Part shown: in pieces, positions 3,568 to 15,546 of the stretch
Layout of the letters: every line of letters begins with the position of its first letter
Numbering within the stretch: the stretch's first letter is position 1
NCBI GenBank assembly: GCA_027345565.1
Contig: DAHWIF010000016.1
Span: 1-15,546 of the forward strand
DNA length: 15,546 nucleotides
From: Candidatus Micrarchaeota archaeon
GTDB lineage: Archaea; Micrarchaeota; Micrarchaeia; Micrarchaeales; Micrarchaeaceae
Direction of reading: 5' to 3'
Program-made: the position numbers and the translations under genes
Notes under the pieces: generated by a model
The model's database searches: none
What the model saw: the letters and a program-made list of their open reading frames with translations, nothing else
What the model was told of the DNA's origin: nothing

Positions 3568-4461
3568 GTGATTCACGTGGAAGAGCACAGGCTCATCAAG
3601 AATATAGTATTTAGGCTCGTCCGTCGTCATATCGCGGGCTCTACTATGAACTCTGCGCTCAACGCGGTGCGCTACCTGAACGGGGAGGGCATGAACACCA
3701 CGCTGACGTTCCTGAGCGAGCATGTGAGCGACCCGATAAAGGCGAGGTACAACGCGAACACCTACGTGCAGATGATAAAGCAGATATCGAGGCTCCACCT
3801 CAACTCATCGGTGTCGCTTAGGCTGAGCCAGATAGGCTACGCGCTCGGCAACGGATCCGCCGACAGGTTCCTCGACGACATACTCGATGCTGCAAACGCC
3901 GGCAACTCAACCGTATGGCTCGAGGGCGGGCTCGGGATGACGCACGACGAGCTCATGGCTGTCTACAACGAGAGGAGGGCCGCCAACCCTAACCTTGGAG
4001 TCGAGATACCGATATCGTATTACAACAGGATGGACGGGATAATAAGGTCGATAAAGCCGCACAGCATGGTAAGGATGACCTCACACCCGTATATGGCGGA
4101 AAGGGCGGACGGCAACGGCAACAAGGCGCAGAAGGGAGTGCTTGACAGGTACATGTCAGCTATAAGGATGCTGCTAAAGAAGAGCCAGAAGGTATGCATA
4201 CACGAGCCTGACGAGAAGCTGATGATCAGGATAGCGTCCAACAGCAACGGGCACAAGAAGGATTTAATATTTGGCGTGCCATTCGGATATAGCAAGCGCA
4301 GGGTGAAGAAGCTGATGAAGATGAAGGTGAACCTCGACGTTTACGTTCCTTACGGCAAGGACTGGAGCACTTACGCGATATACGGCCTGGCAAGCGGGAG
4401 ACTGCACAGCATAGCAACGACGCTGCTTGATGGCGAAAAGAGTGGTACATATGGAGGCTAG
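3568..4461 (+). CDS. Proline dehydrogenase-fold protein with a degenerate active site (start may be GTG 3577)
   Basis: RRHIAGSTMNSAL...LNGEGMNTTLTFLSEHV, VSLRLSQIG and VYVPYGKDWSTY follow the monofunctional PRODH pattern and length, but catalytic and FAD motifs are substituted. Confidence 0.8.
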   Translation: MIHVEEHRLIKNIVFRLVRRHIAGSTMNSALNAVRYLNGEGMNTTLTFLSEHVSDPIKARYNANTYVQMIKQISRLHLNSSVSLRLSQIGYALGNGSADRFLDDILDAANAGNSTVWLEGGLGMTHDELMAVYNERRAANPNLGVEIPISYYNRMDGIIRSIKPHSMVRMTSHPYMAERADGNGNKAQKGVLDRYMSAIRMLLKKSQKVCIHEPDEKLMIRIASNSNGHKKDLIFGVPFGYSKRRVKKLMKMKVNLDVYVPYGKDWSTYAIYGLASGRLHSIATTLLDGEKSGTYGG

Positions 4462-7233: not shown

Positions 7234-8133
7234 ATGCCATTACCGATAAATATAACGTTTCTGGGCACGGCTGGCTCGACGCCGACTAAGGAGAGGGCCC
7301 TCCCTAGCGTAGCAATAGAATACGACGGTAATACCTACCTCTTCGACTGCGGCGAAGGGGCGCAGAGGCAGCTGATAGTATACGGGATAAGCCCGTACAG
7401 GATAAAGGCGATCTTCATAACCCATATCCACGGCGACCACGTCATAGGCGTGGCTGGCCTCGTCAGGACGCTCGCATTGAGCAAGAGGACAGATCCTTTG
7501 TACATTTACGTGCCAAGAGGGGAGGAGCTGAAGGTGACGCCGCTGCTGACCTTCGACAGGGCGCTGATAGGCTACGAGGTTAGGGTAATCGGCGTCAAAT
7601 CCGGCAGCGTGCTGAAAGGCAGGGGATTCTCTGTAAGAGCGTTCATGCTCAGGCACTCGGTGCCGACATACGGGTATGCGTTCACGGAAGACGACAGGTA
7701 CAGGTTCGACAAGGAAAAGTGCAAGAGGCTGGGGCTTAAAGGCGAGATGTATTCGGAGCTGCAGAAGGGCCGCAGCGTAAAGCTTGGAAAAAGGACGGTG
7801 AGGCTGAACGATGTGGCAACCAAGCTCACCGGCAGGAAGGTCGTTTATGCCACCGACACCAGACCGGCCGCGACCACGATAAAGGCATCGCGCGGCGCTG
7901 ACATCCTCATACACGAGGCGACATACGCGGAGGAGCTGAAGCCGTTAGCGAAAGGAAGGCTGCACTCAACCGCCATGGAGTGCGCTGACATAGCGAAGCG
8001 TGCGAAGGTGAAGAGGCTGATAATATTCCACATGAGTGCAAGGTACAAGAGGCCTGATGCATTGCTAAAGGAAGCCAGGGCCGTATTCAAGAGCACGGAT
8101 GCCGCATACGACGGCATGCGCATTATGATTTAG
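7234..8133 (+). CDS. rnz: Ribonuclease Z (tRNA 3' processing endonuclease)
   Basis: FLGTAGSTPTKER, LFDCGEGAQRQ, THIHGDH (HxHxDH), a flexible-arm region, YATDTRP, LIHEATY, HST and HMSARY. Confidence 0.97.
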   Translation: MPLPINITFLGTAGSTPTKERALPSVAIEYDGNTYLFDCGEGAQRQLIVYGISPYRIKAIFITHIHGDHVIGVAGLVRTLALSKRTDPLYIYVPRGEELKVTPLLTFDRALIGYEVRVIGVKSGSVLKGRGFSVRAFMLRHSVPTYGYAFTEDDRYRFDKEKCKRLGLKGEMYSELQKGRSVKLGKRTVRLNDVATKLTGRKVVYATDTRPAATTIKASRGADILIHEATYAEELKPLAKGRLHSTAMECADIAKRAKVKRLIIFHMSARYKRPDALLKEARAVFKSTDAAYDGMRIMI

Positions 8134-8205
8134 GGGCTCGTAGTCGATTGGTAAGACGTCACGTTGACAACGTGAAGATACGGAGTTCGATTCTCCGCGG
8201 GCCCA
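8134..8205 (+). tRNA. tRNA-Val(GAC), intronless, CCA not encoded
   Basis: Cloverleaf: acceptor GGGCTCG/CGGGCCC, D arm GTC/GAC, anticodon arm TCACG-TTGACAA-CGTGA, T arm CGGAG-TTCGATT-CTCCG, discriminator A8205, followed by TCA. Confidence 0.96.
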
Positions 8206-8225
8206 TCATACTTAGATTCCCACTT

Positions 8226-8260
8226 CTCTACATATCACTCTACATACCTCCTTCCACATA
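8226..8260 (+). repeat. Three imperfect short direct repeats in a G-free tract after the tRNA
   Basis: CTCTACATA (8226-8234), CTCTACATA (8238-8246) and TTCCACATA (8252-8260). Confidence 0.5.
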
Positions 8261-8321
8261 ATACCCTAGCTTGAATTTGAACCAAGACAACCTTTTTAAC
8301 CCATCCACGGCCATATAGATC

Positions 8322-8525
8322 ATGCAATGCCCCTCGTGCAAGGCGCTTCTGATATTCGACATGTCGGTGGTACAGGAAATAGCACGCCCAACCCTAATCC
8401 CTCAGCCCTTACCTCTGTATTATAGCGCAGAAGAGATATTAAGTGCTTTCCATTCTAAGAGAGTCTTAGCCAAAAATGGAAGGTATTTAAAGCCTTCTGG
8501 AGATGTTTTGGTAGAGATAAGGTGA
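8322..8525 (+). CDS. Small hypothetical protein with a single N-terminal CPSC motif (possible remnant)
   Basis: Begins MQCPSCKALL; TTTTTAAC about 25 nt upstream; only half of a Zn ribbon. Confidence 0.4.
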   Translation: MQCPSCKALLIFDMSVVQEIARPTLIPQPLPLYYSAEEILSAFHSKRVLAKNGRYLKPSGDVLVEIR

Positions 8526-8640
8526 AACGAATGGATGGAGACGGACGCGGCGGATAACATTATAGACGGAGATGGACCAAGTAACTAGGTCGCCTTAAAC
8601 TTTGCTAATTATATCTGTAGCTTCTATTGTGGTTTTATAA

Positions 8641-9978
8641 TTAAAGTTCAACTATTCCTTTCTTTAATATTTCATAGTCTAATGTCTGTGGCTGAGATAT
8701 ACCAAATTTCTCCTGTAATTTCTCCTGTTGCTTAGAGTGGATGACATCGAAAAGCCTATAGCAGAACGTACCTGTTATTACGGCTGTTCCAACATCCACC
8801 TTTGTCTGCATTCCAAATGTCCTATCAGCTATTTTTCCGGTCTCTTTGTCCATAGAGAAATCATCAAATACAGGCATAAACAGAATGGAGCCATCGGGAG
8901 CGATGGTGTCCCCCGCAAGTGTAAACTTGTTTATTGGATACCTGGTATACTCTATCATCCATTGCAAAAACTTTTTCCTATTCATAACAAATCTATTGTC
9001 TTCCACCACACTTTTGTATAGTACTCCAATATATTTTACAGGCAAACCTGTTAAATTTATAGTTATCCTCTTTATTAATCCGATTGTTCTTAATCTATCA
9101 AAAATATAGCCCACGCTGCCTTTCGGCATATCATGTTTCCGTTCTATATCAGAGAAACTTACTGCTCCGTTTAGCCCAAACTCTTTTAAGAGTATAAATT
9201 CTCTATAGGAAAGCTGTTCTTGGGTCTTCTTTAGCCATTTATGCGTGTCCTTATCTCTAACTCTTCTGAAGACTCTTTTTTCAAGTAAATCAAAGAATTC
9301 CGCCCTCAATGGAACCATCCCGAAGTGTTCATAAAATGGCTGGCTGTTCCACTCTGCCTTCAATCCCGACAGCCCCTCCGCATGACGCAAGCTTGTGATT
9401 ATATCGATTGCTTCAGTGCTGTCATTGTTTCTACCAAGGGCGTATATGAGAAGGTCACAGCTACCTTTCATCAATACAGCAAGCTGCACTCGCGGTTCTC
9501 TATCCATTACGCGTTTTATTGTCTCTAACGCTGGAATATGATCCTTAAATTTAACTGAAATCAAATACTTTGTATAACCAAGTTTATCAAGGTCAATTTC
9601 AGTTATATATTTTATGCATAGGCTGTTTTCAAGATTCTTTATTCTTGATTCTAAAGTTGTTGGGGGGATATTGAGCAGCTTTCCCATATATTTTAATGGC
9701 ATTATCGCATTCATGCTCAATACTTTTAAGATTGAAAGGTCTTTATCGTCCAGTATCGAAATAACATCTTCATTGGGCGGAGACTGGCTGGGCTCTGCTT
9801 TTGTTTTTTCTTTCTTGAAGAACAAACCATTTTCATCTATACGGCCTATGTATTCTGCTTTTGAAATCTGCTTATAGATATAGAAATGTCCATTAATGAC
9901 ATGCATCTGAATAGGGAACGTATATTCTTTCTTTAACGCCTCAAATTTCTCTCTGACATCTATTGGTAAAGCTTTCAT
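8641..9978 (-). CDS. Tandem double Lrp/AsnC-type winged-helix regulator with an extra N-terminal domain (445 aa)
   Basis: HTH1 LDDKDLSILKVLSMNA...PPTTLESRIKNLE...IDLDKLGY; RAM-like VQLAVLMKGSCDLLIY; HTH2 LSYREFILLKEFGLNG.VSFSDIERK...SVGYIFDRLRTIGLIKR. Codon usage is AT-rich. Confidence 0.85.
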   Translation of the reverse strand: MKALPIDVREKFEALKKEYTFPIQMHVINGHFYIYKQISKAEYIGRIDENGLFFKKEKTKAEPSQSPPNEDVISILDDKDLSILKVLSMNAIMPLKYMGKLLNIPPTTLESRIKNLENSLCIKYITEIDLDKLGYTKYLISVKFKDHIPALETIKRVMDREPRVQLAVLMKGSCDLLIYALGRNNDSTEAIDIITSLRHAEGLSGLKAEWNSQPFYEHFGMVPLRAEFFDLLEKRVFRRVRDKDTHKWLKKTQEQLSYREFILLKEFGLNGAVSFSDIERKHDMPKGSVGYIFDRLRTIGLIKRITINLTGLPVKYIGVLYKSVVEDNRFVMNRKKFLQWMIEYTRYPINKFTLAGDTIAPDGSILFMPVFDDFSMDKETGKIADRTFGMQTKVDVGTAVITGTFCYRLFDVIHSKQQEKLQEKFGISQPQTLDYEILKKGIVEL

Positions 9979-10166
9979 AACAGTATTATATATGAATTAA
10001 TATTTAATACTATTGTTATTCTTTATGCTTAGATTATCATTCATATAGTATGTTTTCTGCAATAATACTTTATAACTCTATGTCTCTACTATAATCCGTA
10101 GCATTGTTGCTATTACCTCTTATATACAAGTTCGTTCATAATATCTAATAGGTAGAAGGCGGGAGA
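9979..10166. promoter_or_regulatory. AT-rich divergent control region
   Basis: Several TATA-like words (TATTTAAT near 10001, TTTATAA near 10069, TTATATA at 10120) and an inverted repeat TAGCA-TTGT-TGCTA (10099-10112). Confidence 0.5.
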
Positions 10167-10538
10167 ATGGATAGGGCTTCAAATACATCAACACCCACTG
10201 TGCGGACTTTTCCACCTATTTCAGAGGAGAGCCCCAACCCTAATCCTTCACCTTATCTCTATACCCGGCGTGCCAGGAATGGCGCGCCAGGCCCCACTCT
10301 GAAGCTTTTCAGGTATCTTGCAATCATTGGTGAGAGAATGGGTATATGGAAGGGAAACGGCCAGGATGGCGCAGACAATGCAGAAACATACGGATGCTGG
10401 ATGTGTGGTGCTGAACACAGGAATCCCACCGCGTACCTGTGGCACATACACGCGTGCGAACTTGAGCTGACCGGCAGGAGCGCAATCACGGCAAAGAAGG
10501 AGACTACGCTTTCAGTCGCGGCAATAAAAAAGCAGTGA
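10167..10538 (+). CDS. Small protein with a C2H2/C2HC-like zinc finger
   Basis: YGCWMCGAEHRNPTAYLWHIHAC (CxxC-x12-H-xxx-C); GGGAG before the ATG; Pro-rich N-terminus. The true start may lie further downstream. Confidence 0.6.
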   Translation: MDRASNTSTPTVRTFPPISEESPNPNPSPYLYTRRARNGAPGPTLKLFRYLAIIGERMGIWKGNGQDGADNAETYGCWMCGAEHRNPTAYLWHIHACELELTGRSAITAKKETTLSVAAIKKQ

Positions 10539-10543
10539 AAACC

Positions 10544-10660
10544 ATGAGATGCCCGCACTGCGGAAGGCTTCTCAAGATAAAATGGGAAGGCGTTAAGGCA
10601 AGGCACATCTGCATATACTGCGATTACGAGGCGGAAACGGAAGGGAAAGTGGTAGCATGA
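10544..10660 (+). CDS. 38-aa zinc-ribbon microprotein (not in the ORF track)
   Basis: MRCPHCGRLLKIKWEGVKARHICIYCDYEAETEGKVVA*, with CPHCG and CIYC. Its stop overlaps the next ATG (ATGA 10657-10660), and in-frame GTG 10535 overlaps the previous stop. Confidence 0.75.
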   Translation: MRCPHCGRLLKIKWEGVKARHICIYCDYEAETEGKVVA

Positions 10661-10923
10661 CATTGCAAGCAAAGGAGCATGAAAAGAGCATGAGGGGAAG
10701 GCACCGCAGAGTGCTTTTCAGGAACCCGAAGGCCAGCGTGTCGATGGAGGAGCTTGCGCAGAGGATCATAGAGCTCAACCTTGTAGATGAGGTGCTTGTT
10801 GGCAGGTTCGGAGACGGCTTCGTTGCAAAGATCAGGTTCGCCCGGGGAAGGATGCCGGAGAGGCCTGAAACCTATGTCTCAAAATATATAAGCGGGGATT
10901 TCGGCAGGGTGGTCCGGCCATGA
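10657..10923 (+). CDS. Small protein, possibly a stand-alone Lrp/AsnC ligand-binding (RAM)-like domain
   Basis: VSMEELAQRIIELNLVDEVLVGRFGDGFVAKIRF resembles the RAM helix-strand-G-strand pattern; ATGA-coupled to the upstream ORF. Confidence 0.6.
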   Translation: MTLQAKEHEKSMRGRHRRVLFRNPKASVSMEELAQRIIELNLVDEVLVGRFGDGFVAKIRFARGRMPERPETYVSKYISGDFGRVVRP

Positions 10924-10926
10924 TGG

Positions 10927-11109
10927 TCATTTCGCGCCAGGCTTCGCCCTCGAAGCCTTTATGCTGTGGAGTCTTACCCTTGGCTTGTCCCAGTACGGCG
11001 ACCTGCACTTCGGGCACGTCTCCGGGGGACTGCCTTTATGCCTGGGGATCCATTCGTGGCCGCATCTCGAGCACACAGCATAGACCATCTTTACGGCTCT
11101 GTACGGCAT
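10927..11109 (-). CDS. Small basic zinc-ribbon protein (60 aa)
   Basis: CSRCGHEWIPR...PETCPKCRSPYWDKPR; SD GGTGA and a TTTATAT box upstream on the minus strand. Confidence 0.8.
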   Translation of the reverse strand: MPYRAVKMVYAVCSRCGHEWIPRHKGSPPETCPKCRSPYWDKPRVRLHSIKASRAKPGAK

Positions 11110-11139
11110 CGGGCTTCACCATATAGAGATGCAGCCGAT

Positions 11140-11210
11140 ACATATAAATATCTCTTAATGAATATATATACACTATAAGAATATCATTAGATGTATATGT
11201 TTAAATACAT
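11140..11210. promoter_or_regulatory. Divergent promoters for the Zn-ribbon gene (-) and tyrS (+)
   Basis: Minus-strand TTTATAT (11148-11142). Plus-strand TTTAAATA (11200-11207) lies 26 nt before ATG 11234, a leaderless-type spacing. Confidence 0.6.
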
Positions 11211-11233
11211 AGTATTGCAGATTTGGTGCGGAG

Positions 11234-12343
11234 ATGAAACATGAAAGGAGCTCCAAGGACGGCGTCTGGATTGGTACTGACCCGCATGACGCCGCCAAGC
11301 TCATCAGACCGACTGGCGATATGGATGATTCAATGGCTATGGGAAGGATGGCATTGGTAAGAAGAGGCACGGCTGAGGTCCTCTCCGAGGCGGAGCTCGG
11401 CGAGAAACTCGCAGGCGGGAAAAGGCTCTCCGCATATCTGGGAAGGGCGATAACCGGACCACTTCATCTTGGCCACCTGGTTTCGATAAGCAAGCTGCTC
11501 GACCTGCAAAGGGCGAACATAACGGCCATCGTGCTCCTTGCAGATATACACGCCGCGCTCGACGATCAGAAATCGAAGTGGGAGGAGCTGGAAGTGAGGA
11601 GGGAATACACAAGGAAGGCAATAGAGCTGTCGGTGGACTGGCAGGAAATGCCCAGGTTCGTCCTCGGCTCGGACTTCCAGACTACGAAGGAGTACCAGAT
11701 GGACATATTCAGATTCTCCACGTTGGCGACCGTCAGGGACGCGCTGCACGCCGCGTCTGAGGTGACAAGAATGAAGAACCCAAAGGTCAGCGAGCTCATA
11801 TACCCAATAATGCAGGGCCTTGACGAGCAGTATCTCGGCGTAGACATCCAGCTCGGAGGCACAGACCAGCGCCACATAATGGTCTTCGCAAGGAAGTTCC
11901 TGCCGATGCTTGGCTACGAGAGGCGCGTAGAGCTGATGATGCCTCTCATACCATCATTGAAAGGGCCAGGCGTCAAGATGAGCTCCTCGCTCCCAGGCAC
12001 TAACATAAAGGTCAACGCGTCTGAAGAGGAGATAAGGGCTACGGTAAACGGGGCGTATTGCCCTGCGGGGGTCATACAGGACAATCCCCTAACGGCGATC
12101 GCCAATCTCTTCGTGCTGCCGAACGAGGGCTCGTTTACGATAGCGAGGCCTGAGAAGTTCGGGGGCGACCTCGTGGTCAATTCACAGGAGCAGCTCAACG
12201 AGGAATTCGCTTCGAAGAGGCTGCACCCTGTGGATCTCAAGTGGTTCCTGGCTGATTACCTGATAAGGAAGCTTGCGCGTGCGCGCGAATACTTCGAGGC
12301 GAACCAGGATCTGATAAACAGGCTGGGTCCGCAGTTCAAGTGA
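11234..12343 (+). CDS. tyrS: Tyrosine--tRNA ligase, archaeal/eukaryotic type (alternative start about 11321)
   Basis: SAYLG, HLGH (HIGH motif), LLADIHA.LD, LGSDFQ, LIYPIMQGLDEQYLGVDIQLGGTDQR, KMSSS, AYCPAG, RPEKFGGD and LHPVDLK. Confidence 0.96.
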   Translation: MKHERSSKDGVWIGTDPHDAAKLIRPTGDMDDSMAMGRMALVRRGTAEVLSEAELGEKLAGGKRLSAYLGRAITGPLHLGHLVSISKLLDLQRANITAIVLLADIHAALDDQKSKWEELEVRREYTRKAIELSVDWQEMPRFVLGSDFQTTKEYQMDIFRFSTLATVRDALHAASEVTRMKNPKVSELIYPIMQGLDEQYLGVDIQLGGTDQRHIMVFARKFLPMLGYERRVELMMPLIPSLKGPGVKMSSSLPGTNIKVNASEEEIRATVNGAYCPAGVIQDNPLTAIANLFVLPNEGSFTIARPEKFGGDLVVNSQEQLNEEFASKRLHPVDLKWFLADYLIRKLARAREYFEANQDLINRLGPQFK

Positions 12344-12349
12344 GGAGGC

Positions 12350-12382
12350 ATGATCGTCAAGTGTAGAAGCGATGTCAGATGA
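12350..12382 (+). other. 10-codon intercistronic ORF (MIVKCRSDVR*)
   Basis: GAGGAGG overlaps the tyrS stop, ATG is at 12350, and the TGA at 12380-12382 overlaps both candidate decarboxylase ATGs. Confidence 0.35.
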
Positions 12383-14394
12383 TGGAAGTGGCGTACGGCA
12401 AACAAAAACAGGCGGGGAATGCAAGAGGGACTATCGACACTGATGCGCTGTTTTTGGGGCCTCGGGGCGAGAACGCGCAGATCCTGGTGGAAGCATTCCA
12501 GAAGGCAGTGAGAAGAAACTCCGAATGGAGGAAGGGTTTCCACTCGGAGGACGGAAGCCCGATAGCCAATGGCGCCACCGGGCGGGCAGACTACCAGGCT
12601 ACAATAGAAAGCACGATGGATGTATACGACAGGCTGCTGCTTAGGTTAAACGACGGCTCGACCCCATGGTCGTCGCTGAGGTATCTCGGGCACATGAATA
12701 CCGATACCCTGCTGATATCGATTGCGGCTGAAGCGGCTGCCATGCTCTACAACCCGAACAGCGTCGGGTATGAGTCATCAATCCCGACTGCGAAAATGGA
12801 GGTAGAGGTGGTGCGCGATCTCATAAGGCTTATAGGCTATGACAGGGGCAAAGCGTGGGGATACCTCGCCCTGGACGGCACCATAGCAAACGACGAGGCG
12901 CTGTGGATCGCCAGGGAGCTCAAGGCATTTCCCGTAGCCGTCAAGAGGGCCATGGAATCGCTCATGGCAACCGACGACGTCGCAGACGTTTTAGGCAGGG
13001 CGGCTGCTCTCGAGGAGAGGGAGCTGCTCAACCTTCCGGTCGAGGAAACGATAAGGATGGTGGAGTATGCCGCGAAGTCGAACCACATGCCGTGGATAAT
13101 GAAGCATTCGATACGCCACGTTGGTTCCGACAGGTATCCGAGCTTGGGAGCGATACTTGTCCCAAGCACTGCGCACTACTCCCTGGAAAAGGCTGCGGCG
13201 ATCCTCGGCATCGGGGAGAACAACCTGATCCGCATTCCTGTGGACGAGAACTACAGGATGAACCTCAGCTCCCTGGAGAAGAGAATAGAGAAGCTGCAAA
13301 GGGAAGGTACGCCAATACTGGCGGTTGTCGGAGTCGTAGGGACAACTGAGGAAGGTGCTGTGGACGACATACGCGGAATCGCCGATTTGAGGGATGAGTG
13401 CGCGAAGAGGGGCACAGGCTTTTATTTCCACGTGGACGCTGCCTACGGCGGATACATAAAATCAGCTTACGTCAACAGGGACGGGAGCCGGGCTGCGACC
13501 AACGGCGAAAACGACGCGCACGTCTCTGATTCCTATTTCAGCCTGCACCTGGCCGATTCTGTGACCATCGACCCACACAAACAGGGATACATACCGTATG
13601 TTGCCGGCGGCATATTCGTTAGGAACAGGGAACAGTTCAGGCTGCTTATGCAGTCCGCGGAGTACCTCTTCAGGAACCAGACCGGCAGGGTTGACGAGGC
13701 GCAGAACTTCGGGCGAATCACGTTCGAAGGATCCAGGCCTGGATCCGCAGCCGCAGGCGTCTGGTCCGCCCACAGGCTGCTTCCCCTAGATGTTGACGGA
13801 TATGGGCGCGTGATAAAAATAGCGCAGGAGAATACGAAACGGTTCATGGAGGTCATAGAACGGCTGAAGGATTTTGAGGCAGGCGGGGTCGGATTCCATG
13901 CCGAGCCGCTTTTGCGCAATCCAGACCTGAACATCGTAAATTTCGCGTTCAATTTCGGGTCGAACATAGACCTGAGGCGCATGAACGCTTTCAACGCCAG
14001 CATTTACCGCAACTTTACGTTCAACAGTGGCGCGAAGCCATATGACAATAACGGCCTGATCCTCACGAACACAGCGCTCGTGCGCGATAAATACGGCGAC
14101 GCGCCTAAGGAATTCCTGCACAGGCTTGGCATTCCGGAGCGCGAATGGGACGAGCTCGGCCGTGTAGAGGTGTTGAGGAGCGTCCTCATGCACCCGTGGC
14201 TCATGTCTGCGGAAACGCTGGAAACGTATCACGAAGAGCTGAAGAAAGCGGTAAGGAGGGCGCTTGACGAGCCGTTCGGGAGAGGCGCTGCAGGCATTGC
14301 AGCGCTCAGGCGCAGCGATATCAGCGGCCAGTCTGCGGAGGCGGTCGCTATCAGACCTCGAGGAATTCCGTCTTCAGCTGCTTCAGCGAGGTGA
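12379..14394 (+). CDS. tdcA: Group II PLP-dependent decarboxylase, TdcA-type tyrosine decarboxylase-like (671 aa)
   Basis: LFLGPRGEN, PWSSLRYLGHMNTDTL, NSVGYESS..TAKME.EV, WGYLALDGTIANDEALWIARELKAFP, PSTAHYSLEKAA.ILGIG, VVGVVGTTEEGAVD, FYFHVDAAYGGY, DSVTIDPHKQGYIPY (PLP lysine), EGSRPG, PDLNIV and LRSVLMHPW. These are collinear with Enterococcus/Lactobacillus TdcA as I recall it. The substrate is inferred. Confidence 0.85.
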   Translation: MMEVAYGKQKQAGNARGTIDTDALFLGPRGENAQILVEAFQKAVRRNSEWRKGFHSEDGSPIANGATGRADYQATIESTMDVYDRLLLRLNDGSTPWSSLRYLGHMNTDTLLISIAAEAAAMLYNPNSVGYESSIPTAKMEVEVVRDLIRLIGYDRGKAWGYLALDGTIANDEALWIARELKAFPVAVKRAMESLMATDDVADVLGRAAALEERELLNLPVEETIRMVEYAAKSNHMPWIMKHSIRHVGSDRYPSLGAILVPSTAHYSLEKAAAILGIGENNLIRIPVDENYRMNLSSLEKRIEKLQREGTPILAVVGVVGTTEEGAVDDIRGIADLRDECAKRGTGFYFHVDAAYGGYIKSAYVNRDGSRAATNGENDAHVSDSYFSLHLADSVTIDPHKQGYIPYVAGGIFVRNREQFRLLMQSAEYLFRNQTGRVDEAQNFGRITFEGSRPGSAAAGVWSAHRLLPLDVDGYGRVIKIAQENTKRFMEVIERLKDFEAGGVGFHAEPLLRNPDLNIVNFAFNFGSNIDLRRMNAFNASIYRNFTFNSGAKPYDNNGLILTNTALVRDKYGDAPKEFLHRLGIPEREWDELGRVEVLRSVLMHPWLMSAETLETYHEELKKAVRRALDEPFGRGAAGIAALRRSDISGQSAEAVAIRPRGIPSSAASAR

Positions 14395-14800
14395 GAGAGG
14401 TAGTCTTTGCTATCCCTTTCTTTGAAAGCACGTTCTTCACGAACTGGTAGAACTCGTCCACGTCCCTGGTCCTTATCTTGAGCAGCATCTCCCATCCGCC
14501 TGTAATTATGTCTACGCTCTCTATCTGAGAGAAGCCGGACAGCTCCTTGGCCAGCCGCTCCGGATCCGCGTATTCCTCGGCTGCCAAGTTCACCAGCACG
14601 TAGCTGCAGAAACCCTCCCCTATCAGCTTGTAGTCGAAGACCGCCTTGTACCCCCGTATGACCTTCTCTCTCTCCATCTGCTTGACGTTGTAGTGCACCG
14701 TGGCGGGTGGCTCCCTGAGCTTCTTCGCGATACCGACTATCCTTGGGGAGCAATACCCCTTCTTCAGCAGCCCGAGAAGCTCCTGCCTTACGTTTTTCAT
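14351..14800 (-). CDS. Lrp/AsnC family transcriptional regulator
   Basis: HTH IAKKLREPPATVHYNVKQMEREKVIRGYKAVFDY; RAM domain IESVDIITGGWEMLLKIRTRD...KTTSLTSLKQLK. Confidence 0.94.
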   Translation of the reverse strand: MKNVRQELLGLLKKGYCSPRIVGIAKKLREPPATVHYNVKQMEREKVIRGYKAVFDYKLIGEGFCSYVLVNLAAEEYADPERLAKELSGFSQIESVDIITGGWEMLLKIRTRDVDEFYQFVKNVLSKKGIAKTTSLTSLKQLKTEFLEV

Positions 14801-14805
14801 GGTTA

Positions 14806-14820
14806 TTGAATAATATTCAA
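14806..14820. promoter_or_regulatory. Perfect 15-bp palindrome, likely Lrp operator
   Basis: TTGAATA-A-TATTCAA lies between the lrp start codon and its TATA box (minus-strand TATATAAA, 14830-14823). Confidence 0.7.
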
Positions 14821-14860
14821 CATTTATATAGTTTTTGGTCTATTTTTCAAATTTTATTCA

Positions 14861-14874
14861 GGAATGTATAAATA
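14861..14874 (+). promoter_or_regulatory. BRE/TATA promoter for the rightmost gene
   Basis: GGAATG-TATAAATA, with the TATA box at 14867-14874. Confidence 0.55.
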
Positions 14875-14954
14875 GCCGGCAGCACACAATATACATAACG
14901 AAGAGGGAGAGTGATGCCCTTCCAATATCCGACGGGAAACGATCGGGAGACCCG

Positions 14955-15546
14955 ATGCCCGGAGCAGCGCCGCGCGCGCTCACGGCTCTAGCCAGGGCCT
15001 CGGATTCTAATTTTAAGGTAGTTGACTTAAGGAAATCGGCAACCACCGCCGCCGAAGCAAGATGGCTTATGGCGCGCGGCGGTTTCTTTGATACGCACGA
15101 AGTCGAGCTGGAGGGATTGGGCGACTGCTTCCACTCGTTCGAGCTGCACCCTGCAGCGATGTCGCTCGATTTTGAATCGCTGCTGGAACGTTCTAGGGAA
15201 CATAAGGCGACGGTGCGCTCGCTGCTGGAAGGGGACGCCACCTTCCAGGAAAAGGTTTCCTTGTTTGAAAGGAGCCTGCACCACAATCTTGAAATGCTGT
15301 TCGTGGAGGGCATGATTGCAGACCGCAGCATCGTTATGGGCTGGAAAAGAAATGGGCAGATAAGGAACATCGAAGATGGTCTGGAGAGGTTTGTTGCCGC
15401 ATGGGAGATCATGCAGCCGTTCTACAGCGTGGAGGGTTTCGTCGGCTCCTTCGGCAAGAAAGGGGGATCGGAGGAGAGCGGCATACTGGATGTCCTGGAG
15501 GAACTGTTGCCAGGCGTCAATCCGAGCACCCCGAAAGGCAAGCAGA
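14955..15546 (+). CDS. Hypothetical protein, partial (runs off the right edge)
   Basis: Not in the ORF track. The frame stays open to the window end: MPGAAPRALTALARASDSNFKVVDLRK...WLMARGGFFDTHEVELEGLGDCFHSFELHP...FVAAWEIMQPFYSVEGFVGSFGKKGG. GGGAGA precedes the ATG. Confidence 0.75.
   Translation, partial: MPGAAPRALTALARASDSNFKVVDLRKSATTAAEARWLMARGGFFDTHEVELEGLGDCFHSFELHPAAMSLDFESLLERSREHKATVRSLLEGDATFQEKVSLFERSLHHNLEMLFVEGMIADRSIVMGWKRNGQIRNIEDGLERFVAAWEIMQPFYSVEGFVGSFGKKGGSEESGILDVLEELLPGVNPSTPKGKQ

What the first reader, a model, noticed from the sequence alone, without database searches (positions are those of the whole stretch)
11234..14800. Archaeal tyrS-tdcA(-lrp) module mirroring the Firmicute tyramine locus with an archaeal synthetase
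Seen: an archaeal/eukaryotic-type TyrRS with intact HIGH, KMSKS and Tyr-pocket motifs is followed 35 nt later by a 671-aa decarboxylase of the long TdcA type, not the roughly 400-aa archaeal MfnA type. Known: Enterococcus and Lactobacillus brevis carry tyrS-tdcA-tyrP-nhaC for acid resistance and proton-motive force, and aaRS/decarboxylase neighbours also occur as hisRS-hdcA and lysU-cadBA. Inference: because this TyrRS is not bacterial-type, the pairing arose independently or by in-place replacement, which implies real functional coupling. Options are protecting Tyr-tRNA charging while tyrosine is consumed, tolerance to tyramine, or a tRNA-linked pathway. No antiporter is adjacent, and an amino-acid-sensing Lrp is present instead. 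I know of no description of this in archaea but cannot check.
Basis: partly seen in the sequence, partly recalled or inferred. Interest (0 to 1): 0.85.

Follow-up and report, generated by a model that had tools for sequence, protein, structure and literature searches.

The report
One-off TyrRS–decarboxylase pair in Micrarchaeon
A tiny acid-mine archaeon carries a second, ordinary-looking tyrosyl-tRNA synthetase gene directly in front of a highly diverged tyrosine-decarboxylase-like gene, but the pairing was found in no other archaeal locus examined, so it looks like a recent juxtaposition in a variable genome region and not a conserved archaeal tyramine module.

Summary
An archaeal-type TyrRS (11234-12343) lies 35 nt upstream of a 671-aa TdcA-family PLP decarboxylase (12379-14394), with a convergent Lrp/AsnC gene.

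The genome (600 kb, 84% complete, Micrarchaeota) has a second TyrRS on contig C3 (33% identity). The C3 copy is the type normal for the genus. The window copy ("type B") matched in 32 of 401 genomes of the phylum. It was the only TyrRS found in 28 of the 31 others, and none of those carries TdcA. It shows no unusual substitutions.

The decarboxylase sits on by far the longest branch of its family tree, apart from other Micrarchaeota TdcAs. Four pocket-adjacent positions are changed, three to residues seen in none of 87 relatives. It lacks the TyrP-like antiporter that sits immediately upstream of TdcA in 12 of 12 other archaeal loci; here TyrRS occupies that slot.

Everything right of tRNA-Val (8134-8205) is missing from congeners. 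No archaeal-type TyrRS was found beside TdcA in 160 other loci. A 92%-identical TdcA elsewhere has no recorded TyrRS-B partner.

Best reading: a probably co-transcribed but one-off juxtaposition in an accessory region. A convergent functional tyrS-tdcA module remains possible (about 0.27).

The parts
8134..8205 (+). tRNA-Val(GAC). It is the last feature syntenic with congeners and the left edge of the strain-specific region.
   Evidence: Rfam 66 bits; ARAGORN. In one search the epimerase-PcrB-NFACT-tRNase Z-tRNA-Val order is conserved in G010, G005, G009 and G011, and nothing from 8206 onward matches their downstream DNA. G009 has a 33-nt copy of the tRNA 3' half 3.8 kb downstream.
8206..11233 (.). 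Accessory DNA. It holds a low-GC segment (37-43% GC) with a 445-aa double-wHTH gene (8641-9978, -), then small zinc-ribbon-like ORFs (10167-10538, 10657-10923). An AT-rich stretch (about 11140-11233) with a TATA-like TTTAAATA lies about 30 nt before the tyrS ATG.
   Evidence: The small ORFs have paralogues at G000:C3:76.0-76.5 kb and DNA matches in 4 of 12 congeners. Promoter assignment is inference from the sequence.
11234..12343 (+). Second tyrosyl-tRNA synthetase, 'type B' (A. fulgidus/M. jannaschii-like). The N-terminal 38 aa are absent from relatives, so the true start may be Met39 (11348).
   Evidence: a 23-row starred clade that includes rows named Micrarchaeia or Micrarchaeaceae; 4 deviations at >=90%-conserved columns, median 3.
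12344..12378 (+). 35-nt spacer with no TATA-like or terminator-like element, so co-transcription is likely.
   Evidence: Inference only; there are no RNA data.
12379..14394 (+). TdcA-family PLP decarboxylase, 671 aa. The catalytic residues are kept, four pocket-adjacent positions are changed, and the branch is very long.
14351..14800 (-). Lrp/AsnC regulator, convergent with the decarboxylase gene and overlapping it by 44 nt.
   Evidence: A >=90%-identical copy lies on a separate 3733-nt contig elsewhere.
14806..14820 (.). Near-perfect 15-nt palindrome TTGAATAATATTCAA in the lrp/ORF237 divergent promoter region. It is a candidate Lrp box and occurs only here in the window.
   Evidence: expected by chance 0.28. 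Its function is inferred.
14835..15545 (+). Unknown soluble ORF, cut by the contig end and divergent from lrp. It has no family match and no relative in 60 related genomes.

Best explanation
The region right of tRNA-Val in this acid-mine-drainage Micrarchaeon is strain-specific accessory DNA. Two independently acquired genes have come to lie head to tail there.

Gene 1 is a canonical, housekeeping-grade archaeal TyrRS of a 'type B' lineage. This lineage moves among Micrarchaeota and usually stands as the only TyrRS found in the genomes that carry it. Here it coexists with the native type A copy on contig C3.

Gene 2 is a TdcA-family PLP decarboxylase acquired from outside the Micrarchaeota TdcA group. 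It has lost its usual TyrP-like antiporter partner and has diverged strongly, including at four pocket-adjacent positions.

The two genes are probably transcribed together from an AT-rich promoter upstream of tyrS (inferred). The decarboxylase would then act on cytoplasmic tyrosine or another, possibly different, amino acid, consuming a proton, while extra TyrRS is made at the same time (inferred). The pairing is a one-off juxtaposition. It is not a conserved or co-evolved archaeal tyrS-tdcA module, and the Lrp gene belongs with its divergent neighbour and not with this pair.
For: - Two TyrRS genes at 33% identity. Type A is the norm in the genus and family: 60 of 61 related genomes match the family model, and only G000, G031 and G054 have two full-length copies.
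- Type B matched in 32 of 401 phylum genomes at E<=1e-70. Of these, 25 including G000 are at >=50% identity; the weakest 7 are at 41-46%. It was the only TyrRS found in 28 of the 31 others. None of those 31 is among the TdcA carriers.
- The window TyrRS nests in a starred 23-row clade together with the type B copies of TdcA-free G054 and G031. It is not unusual at conserved columns.
- TdcA occurs in 9 of 401 phylum genomes. None is in the window's own family (0 of 93) or in f3 (0 of 83), and none in 60 relatives.
- Window TdcA plus P0001 sit on the longest stem of the tree: 1.26 with FastTree and 2.7 with the mixture model. A starred branch separates them from the other Micrarchaeota TdcAs, and the AU test rejects joining them (p 0.0013).
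- A265, Q402 and V408 occur in none of 87 relatives at positions equivalent to LbTDC K240, M393 and S399. V602, at the S586 position, occurs in only 3 of 87.
- A TyrP-like antiporter lies immediately upstream of TdcA in 12 of 12 archaeal loci and near TdcA in 58 of 80 loci in all. None is in the window or the genome.
- Synteny with congeners ends at tRNA-Val. ORF237 is absent from 60 relatives. No genus-level DNA match covers tyrS-tdcA-lrp.
- No TyrRS-B above 69% identity of any length >=30 aa is on record, and its 90% cluster has one member. The TdcA cluster has a second member on a 6138-nt contig.
Against: - The arrangement (tyrS immediately upstream, same strand, 35 nt) copies the Firmicute order. 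A bacterial tyrS lies within 8 kb of TdcA in 23 of 68 bacterial loci, so the association is recurrent in bacteria and may be selected.
- G000 is one of only four genomes found with both TyrRS types, and it is the only one of 401 with both type B and TdcA. If the two traits were independent, about 0.1 such genome would be expected (my arithmetic), before counting adjacency.
- The context of the 92%-identical TdcA was inferred from cluster and homologue look-ups only, not read directly.
- The genome is 84% complete and the contig ends 1.1 kb past the decarboxylase, so an antiporter could lie in unassembled DNA.
Confidence: 0.6

Rival explanations
1. This is a true functional module, convergent with the Firmicute tyrS-tdcA locus. 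The decarboxylase drains cytoplasmic tyrosine and consumes protons in an acidic habitat. The co-transcribed second TyrRS keeps tRNA-Tyr charged while the pool is low. Tyramine leaves by diffusion or through an unidentified carrier.
For: - Same order, same strand and tight spacing as in Enterococcus-like loci.
- A second tyrS elsewhere in the genome, as PMC3315439 describes for E. faecalis (passages read).
- The recurrent bacterial association: 23 of 68 bacterial loci.
- The source run is labelled a mine drainage metagenome.
- Both ORFs are intact. All family-invariant residues of the decarboxylase are kept, and the TyrRS is ordinary.
- Joint occurrence plus adjacency is improbable if the two traits are independent (my arithmetic).
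Against: - The adjacency was not found in 12 other archaeal genome loci, 80 metagenome loci or 8 phylum genomes.
- No TyrRS-B partner is recorded for the 92%-identical TdcA.
- TyrRS-B does not form a TdcA-linked clade, unlike the TDC-linked TyrS clade described in PMC3315439.
- Three other genomes hold both TyrRS types without TdcA.
- No antiporter was found, although one accompanies TdcA in 12 of 12 other archaeal loci.
- The altered pocket residues leave the substrate uncertain. In LbTDC, only A, G and T replacements at S586 kept more than 10% activity (PMC4904194, section 15 read).
Confidence: 0.27
2. This is an assembly or binning chimera. The DNA right of the tRNA-Val gene belongs to a different organism and was joined through the shared tRNA sequence.
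For: - The tRNA is a high-depth repeat in the community (depth 422 against about 9), and Logan contigs break inside it.
- GC falls to 37-43% directly after it.
- All genes to the right are missing from congeners.
Against: - Depth is alike on both sides: 8.9 on the right and 9-13 on the left.
- GC of 10.5-15.5 kb (0.49-0.57) brackets the genome's 0.51-0.535.
- The small ORFs at 10.1-10.9 kb have paralogues on G000:C3 and in congeners.
- TyrRS-B belongs phylogenetically to the same order and family.
- Even if it were a chimera, the tyrS-tdcA junction itself is confirmed.
Confidence: 0.05
3. The decarboxylase is a relic drifting after loss of its antiporter, and the adjacency has no meaning for either gene.
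For: - The very long stem and the unusual residues at otherwise conserved positions.
- Loss of the antiporter.
- A breakpoint at the gene's 3' end. Logan depth changes at 14278-14452, P0001 ends 11 aa earlier, and the Lrp relative lies on another contig.
Against: - The 671-aa frame is open.
- All invariant columns of a 22-sequence alignment are kept, including the PLP lysine.
- The copy at 92% identity has no gaps over 659 residues and shares all four unusual residues. This points to retention under selection after the changes.
Confidence: 0.08

Closest known systems
Firmicute tyramine (TDC) cluster tyrS-tdcA-tyrP-nhaC (Enterococcus, Levilactobacillus)
   Same: A tyrS lies immediately upstream of a TdcA-family decarboxylase on the same strand, with another tyrS elsewhere in the genome (PMC3315439 passages).
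   Different: The TyrRS is archaeal type, not bacterial TIGR00234 type. No tyrP or nhaC homologue was found. There is no T-box leader (Rfam scan; none is expected in archaea). The TyrRS does not belong to a TDC-linked clade. The decarboxylase is about 38% identical to the solved TDCs by my reading of the alignment, and it scores below the equivalog cut-off.
Archaeal and bacterial antiporter-TdcA pairs (TyrP-like APC gene immediately upstream of TdcA)
   Same: The same decarboxylase family and architecture (PF00282 + PF21391). The closest relatives at 40-46% identity include Micrarchaeota, Thermoplasmata and several bacterial phyla.
   Different: In 12 of 12 archaeal loci the upstream slot holds the antiporter. 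Here it holds TyrRS. The window enzyme is on a far longer branch and differs at four pocket-adjacent positions.
Archaeal TyrRS of the A. fulgidus/M. jannaschii type (PDB 2cyb, 1j1u)
   Same: Full-length alignment at 243 and 232 bits, with the HIGH-type and KMSSS motifs and the tyrosine-binding residues conserved.
   Different: It is a second copy beside a P. horikoshii/A. pernix-like TyrRS, and the called ORF has a 38-aa N-terminal extension.
Duplicate or alternative aaRS genes, such as B. subtilis tyrS/tyrZ and thrS/thrZ (as cited in PMC3315439)
   Same: Two divergent synthetases for one amino acid in one genome.
   Different: Here the two are deep archaeal lineages in a 0.6-Mb DPANN genome. 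The phylum-wide pattern suggests displacement of one type by the other (28 of 31 carriers show type B only), with coexistence rare. Nothing points to a regulated back-up pair.
MfnA (archaeal about 400-aa tyrosine/aspartate decarboxylase)
   Same: A group II PLP decarboxylase fold.
   Different: 138 bits against a cut-off of 299 and a different length and C-terminal domain. No MfnA-type gene was found in the genome: the TdcA gene is the only PF00282 match.

Membership tests
Archaeal/eukaryotic-type tyrosyl-tRNA synthetase (NF006330) | Score over the curated cut-off | tested here: met
   317.6 bits against 220; 317.4 in the genome search.
Archaeal/eukaryotic-type tyrosyl-tRNA synthetase (NF006330) | Class I signature motifs HIGH and KMSKS | tested here: met
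   HLGH and KMSSS in the alignment to 2cyb and 1j1u. The M. jannaschii chain also reads KMSSS.
Archaeal/eukaryotic-type tyrosyl-tRNA synthetase (NF006330) | Tyrosine-binding Tyr, Gln and Asp (M. jannaschii Y32, Q155, D158; numbering recalled) | tested here: met
   Identical residues in the aligned columns. There are only 4 deviations at >=90%-conserved columns of 53 type B sequences.
Archaeal/eukaryotic-type tyrosyl-tRNA synthetase (NF006330) | Charges tRNA-Tyr | not testable with these tools
   One tRNA-Tyr(GTA) gene was found in the genome.
Enterococcus-type tyrosine decarboxylase TdcA (TIGR03811) | Equivalog score over the curated cut-off | tested here: not met
   470.1 bits against 905.3.
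Enterococcus-type tyrosine decarboxylase TdcA (TIGR03811) | Architecture PF00282 + PF21391 and full-length alignment to solved TDCs | tested here: met
   7cwx 392 bits over residues 14-631; 5hsi 390 bits over residues 17-633.
Enterococcus-type tyrosine decarboxylase TdcA (TIGR03811) | PLP lysine and stacking histidine (LbTDC K392, H241), plus Y331 and Y398 | tested here: met
   K401, H266, Y356 and Y407 are conserved.
Enterococcus-type tyrosine decarboxylase TdcA (TIGR03811) | Pocket residues K240, M393 and S586 (small residue) as in characterised TDCs | tested here: not met
   A265, Q402 and V602. S399 is also changed, to V408. PMC4904194 section 15 reports that only A, G and T replacements at S586 kept more than 10% activity.
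Enterococcus-type tyrosine decarboxylase TdcA (TIGR03811) | Decarboxylates L-tyrosine | not testable with these tools
   Needs an enzyme assay.
Tyramine cluster tyrS-tdcA-tyrP-nhaC | tyrS immediately upstream of tdcA, same strand | tested here: met
   The synthetase is archaeal type, however.
Tyramine cluster tyrS-tdcA-tyrP-nhaC | Tyrosine/tyramine antiporter TyrP (NF040513) and NhaC in the cluster | tested here: not met
   No match in the window or genome. The sole APC permease is a general type on C2. The genome is 84% complete.
Tyramine cluster tyrS-tdcA-tyrP-nhaC | Cluster-linked TyrS forms its own clade apart from housekeeping TyrS (PMC3315439) | tested here: not met
   The window TyrRS nests among type B TyrRSs of TdcA-free genomes.
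Tyramine cluster tyrS-tdcA-tyrP-nhaC | T-box leader upstream of tyrS | tested here: not met
   The Rfam scan of the window at E<=1 found only the tRNA.
MfnA (TIGR03812) | Score over the curated cut-off | tested here: not met
   137.9 bits against 299.4.
Lrp/AsnC regulators | AsnC-type ligand-binding domain over the cut-off | tested here: met
   PF01037 44.1 bits against 25. All NCBIfam equivalogs are below their cut-offs.

The most novel reading that the evidence does not exclude
An archaeon has independently assembled a tyrS-tdcA operon from an archaeal TyrRS and a foreign decarboxylase, while discarding the antiporter that accompanies TdcA in the other archaeal loci examined. If the pair is functional, it would show that draining an amino-acid pool by decarboxylation selects for a dedicated synthetase across domains. 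It would also show that the remodelled, antiporter-less enzyme (A265, Q402, V408, V602) works inside the cell, for proton consumption or to make an amine used by the cell or its host. That would be a new physiological mode for the TdcA family in a DPANN symbiont.
Probability: 0.25. Interest if true: 0.7.

Novelty: new variant of a known kind. Interest (0 to 1): 0.4.

Why it matters
If the pair works as a unit, it would be the first archaeal counterpart of the long-debated tyrS gene in bacterial tyramine clusters. It would be built from unrelated parts, which would argue that synthetase-decarboxylase linkage is selected and not historical accident.

As it stands, three points are of more modest interest:
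- Two deep TyrRS lineages are displacing one another across Micrarchaeota, with rare genomes caught holding both.
- A TdcA-family enzyme has lost its antiporter and changed pocket residues, so 'tyrosine decarboxylase' annotations by family name are unsafe here.
- A tRNA-Val-linked variable region exists in a 0.6-Mb DPANN genome.

My searches of the held library found no paper on tyrosine decarboxylase or tyramine metabolism in Micrarchaeota or DPANN, and none on an archaeal tyrS-tdcA pair. For the first hit I read the matching passages; for the two hits and the listings I saw only the search listing.

Tried and rejected
- I looked for the pairing elsewhere and did not find it. Sources: 60 relatives, 400 further genomes of the phylum, flanks of the 8 other TdcA-bearing genomes of the phylum (two of these were contigs of only 3.2 and 2.5 kb), the best 80 loci of genome contigs and the best 80 of metagenome contigs.
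- Neighbourhoods of type B TyrRS in G054, G031, G024 and G047 hold no decarboxylase.
- No remnant of an antiporter gene is in the window.
- No T-box or other Rfam element lies upstream of tyrS.
- No second copy of the lrp-promoter palindrome occurs upstream of tyrS.
- The sigma-70 and terminator scan is uninformative for an archaeon.
- No copy of the tRNA-Val 3' end was found downstream in the window or elsewhere in G000, so island ends are not defined. The contig ends at 15546.
- ORF237 has no Pfam or NCBIfam match, no Atlas hit and no relative in 60 genomes.
- Expression: no RNA holder was listed for this stretch. Two metatranscriptome runs of the same study laid nothing on the genes except one contig on the tRNA. 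This says nothing either way.
I used cluster and homologue look-ups instead, which is indirect.
- I did not run structure prediction, complex prediction or the representative search. I make no binding claim, and the families were already clear.
- Supplements of papers were not consulted.
- The AU test group was named after seeing the tree, which weakens its p-value. The trees are 'quick' or FastTree and contain a very long branch.

Full report
**What is there.** The window is a whole 15,546-nt contig (C8) of a 600-kb, 16-contig genome. The genome is 83.9% complete and 0.9% contaminated.
- ORF 11234-12343(+) is an archaeal-type tyrosyl-tRNA synthetase. It scores 317.6 bits on NF006330 (cut-off 220) and has PF00579. 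It aligns end to end with the A. fulgidus and M. jannaschii enzymes, with HLGH, KMSSS and the tyrosine-binding Tyr, Gln and Asp in place (the M. jannaschii numbering is recalled).
- Thirty-five nucleotides later, ORF 12379-14394(+) encodes a 671-aa PLP decarboxylase with PF00282 and the TdcA C-terminal domain PF21391. It aligns over nearly its full length with the solved E. faecalis and L. brevis tyrosine decarboxylases (392 and 390 bits). It reaches only 470 of the 905 bits that the TIGR03811 equivalog requires, and it is not MfnA (138 of 299 bits).
- ORF 14351-14800(-) is an Lrp/AsnC regulator. It is convergent with the decarboxylase gene and overlaps it by 44 nt.
- A Logan contig of the source run covers 10419-14278 without a difference, so the junction is real.

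**Whose genome.** Sources name the closest TyrRS relatives Candidatus Micrarchaeia or Micrarchaeaceae. Same-class genomes with TdcA have contigs of the same lengths as records titled Ca. Micrarchaeia or Micrarchaeota. The run that holds the stretch is labelled a mine drainage metagenome. The left half of the contig is native. The order epimerase-PcrB-NFACT-tRNase Z-tRNA-Val is conserved in congeners, with PcrB 93% identical in G003.

**Two TyrRS genes.** The genome has a second TyrRS on C3 (351.5 bits), only 33% identical to the window copy.
- The C3 copy ('type A') is closest to the P. horikoshii and A. pernix enzymes. The window copy ('type B') is closest to A. fulgidus and M. jannaschii.
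- Type A is what the genus and family normally carry. 60 of 61 related genomes match the family model, and two full-length copies were seen only in G000, G031 and G054.
- In a 401-genome sample of the phylum, type B matched at E<=1e-70 in 32 genomes (13 of 93 in the own family, 0 of 10 other congeners). The weakest 7 of these, at 41-46% identity, may be a further subtype.
- Searching the 31 other carriers with the type A protein showed a separate type A gene only in G031, G054 and G359. In the other 28 the only match was the type B gene itself, including 8 genomes at least 90% complete.
- In a tree of 63 sequences the two types are split by starred branches. The window protein lies in a starred 23-row clade that includes rows named Micrarchaeia or Micrarchaeaceae and the type B copies of G054 and G031.
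- Its end branch is 0.36 against a median of 0.14, but it departs from >=90%-conserved columns at only 4 positions (median 3, maximum 11 among 53).
- The neighbourhoods of type B genes in G054, G031, G024 and G047 hold no decarboxylase.

Type B is therefore an ordinary, housekeeping-capable TyrRS that spreads and replaces type A in this phylum independently of TdcA.

**The decarboxylase.**
- *Distribution.* TdcA-family genes were found in none of 60 relatives and in 9 of 401 genomes of the phylum, all but G000 in two other families (3 of 30 and 5 of 76). None of these has type B TyrRS.
- *Relatives.* The only close relative on record is P0001 (92% identity, no gaps over 659 residues). The next are at 44-46%.
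- *Tree position.* In trees of 89 rows (FastTree) and 36 rows (mixture model), window plus P0001 sit on by far the longest stem (1.26 and 2.7). They fall among rows from Acidobacteriota, Actinomycetota, Chloroflexota, Thermoplasmata and unnamed sources. A starred branch separates them from the other Micrarchaeota enzymes. An AU test rejects uniting them (p 0.0013; the group was named after seeing the tree).
- *Active site.* I mapped the L. brevis residues studied by mutagenesis (PMC4904194, section 15 read). The PLP lysine, H241, Y331, Y398 and the HMN loop are kept. Window and P0001 alone carry A for K240 (87 others: K 71, R 15, M 1), Q for M393 (M 71, L 12, V 3, A 1) and V for S399 (S 43, A 37, P 5, Q 1, D 1). 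They also carry V for S586 (C 63, A 14, S 5, V 3, T 2). In LbTDC only A, G and T at 586 kept more than 10% activity.

The enzyme is very probably an active PLP decarboxylase, but its substrate is not secure.

**The missing antiporter.** Using the TyrP (NF040513, 694 bits) and NhaC-like genes of Enterococcus-like loci as queries, I found a TyrP-like APC gene near TdcA in 58 of 80 genome loci. It lies immediately upstream on the same strand in all 12 archaeal loci: Thermoplasmata, five Micrarchaeota, two Methanophagales, Methanobrevibacter, Methanomicrobiales, Pacearchaeota and one unclassified archaeon. In the window that slot is occupied by TyrRS. There is no TyrP-like gene or remnant in the window or the genome. 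The only APC permease is a general amino-acid type on C2. The genome is incomplete and the contig ends soon after, so absence is not proven.

**Is the pairing found elsewhere?**
- A bacterial-type tyrS (TIGR00234) lies within 8 kb of TdcA in 23 of 68 bacterial loci (Bacillaceae, Paenibacillus, Clostridium, Enterococcaceae, Lactobacillaceae, Chromobacterium).
- No TyrRS of either type was found in the 12 archaeal loci.
- Among 80 metagenome loci, 2 have a bacterial tyrS and none has an archaeal one.
- For the contig of P0001 I could only reason indirectly. P0001 has a complete N-terminus and lies on a 6138-nt contig. Yet no TyrRS-B relative above 69% identity, of 30 residues or more, is on record, and the 90% cluster of the window's TyrRS has one member. 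Unless that contig starts within about 125 nt of the gene, it has no type B tyrS upstream.
- The Lrp relative lies on a different contig of 3733 nt. Logan depth changes at 14278-14452, which suggests a breakpoint at the 3' end of the decarboxylase gene.

**Genomic setting.**
- Synteny with congeners stops at tRNA-Val(GAC), 8134-8205.
- Beyond it lie a 37-43% GC segment with a 445-aa double-wHTH gene, then small zinc-ribbon-like ORFs with paralogues on C3 and in congeners, then tyrS-tdcA, lrp and an unknown ORF that is absent from 60 relatives.
- G009 carries a 33-nt copy of the tRNA-Val 3' half 3.8 kb downstream of its tRNA-Val. This suggests that the tRNA is an integration site in the genus.
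- No such repeat was found in G000, so 'accessory region' is shown but 'integrated element' is only inferred.

**Mechanism.**
- *Shown:* two intact genes, same strand, 35 nt apart. The spacer has no AT-rich promoter-like or terminator-like element, and an AT-rich stretch with a TATA-like box lies about 30 nt before the tyrS ATG.
- *Inferred:* one transcript carries both genes. The decarboxylase acts in the cytoplasm without a dedicated exchanger, consuming a proton per turnover, in an organism from acidic drainage. TyrRS-B simply adds charging capacity.
- Lrp more likely controls itself and the divergent ORF. The only near-perfect palindrome, TTGAATAATATTCAA, lies in their shared 34-nt promoter region and nowhere else in the window.

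**Verdict.** However, the evidence favours a one-off juxtaposition of two separately mobile genes over a conserved, co-evolved archaeal module (0.6). Arguments for real coupling remain. The Firmicute-like arrangement, the recurrent bacterial association and the low joint probability under independence keep the convergent-module reading at about 0.27. Novelty: a new variant of known kinds.

Noticed in passing
Phylum-wide; G000:C3:3938-4975 and window 11234-12343: Two deep TyrRS lineages alternate across Micrarchaeota. Type B matched in 32 of 401 sampled genomes and was the only TyrRS found in 28 of the 31 others. Both types coexist only in G000, G031, G054 and G359. This looks like ongoing xenologous displacement of an aaRS in reduced genomes.
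   Followed up: partly
L120 (G009:C5) 4011-4082 and 7901-7933: A congener has a 33-nt direct copy of the 3' half of tRNA-Val 3.8 kb downstream of the intact tRNA-Val. This is the signature of an element integrated at the same tRNA that bounds the accessory region in the window.
   Followed up: no
window 8206-10260: A low-GC (37-43%) segment carries a 445-aa protein with AsnC-type and MarR-type wHTH domains. It is bracketed by an 18-nt direct repeat (8387-8404 / 10233-10250, 17 of 18) and a 15-nt inverted repeat (8512-8526 / 10247-10261). A 29%-identical homologue lies 2.5 kb upstream of the type B TyrRS of G024 (L032).
   Followed up: partly
window 10167-10923; G000:C3:76063-76484: A cassette of small cysteine-rich (zinc-ribbon-like) ORFs is repeated on contig C3 (62% and 31% aa identity) and has DNA matches in 4 of 12 congeners (G003, G004, G005, G008). 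It may be a mobile or viral-type small-gene family.
   Followed up: partly
window 14806-14820: The near-perfect palindrome TTGAATAATATTCAA lies in the 34-nt gap between lrp and the divergent unknown ORF. It is a candidate Lrp operator.
   Followed up: partly
window 14278-14452: Logan contig depth drops from 8.9 to 3.8 and then 7.0 at the 3' end of the decarboxylase gene. P0001 ends 11 aa earlier with a diverged tail, and the Lrp relative (P0274) is on another contig. A strain-level rearrangement breakpoint probably lies here.
   Followed up: partly
TyrRS tree: own_G000_C3_A + L034_A: The genus's native type A TyrRS sits on a stem of 1.1 substitutions per site relative to other type A enzymes of the order. 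It is only 38-40% identical to the type A copies of G031 and G054.
   Followed up: no
L035-L114: In bacteria, tyrS near TdcA is not confined to lactic acid bacteria. It also occurs in Bacillus, Gottfriedia, Neobacillus and Paenibacillus, in several Clostridium (there 1.3-7 kb downstream on the opposite strand), and in Chromobacterium. Several Clostridium loci carry two or three TyrP-like genes.
   Followed up: no
window 11234-11347: The called TyrRS ORF has a 38-aa N-terminal extension absent from most relatives, which are about 338 aa. The alignment begins at Met39, so the start codon is uncertain.
   Followed up: no
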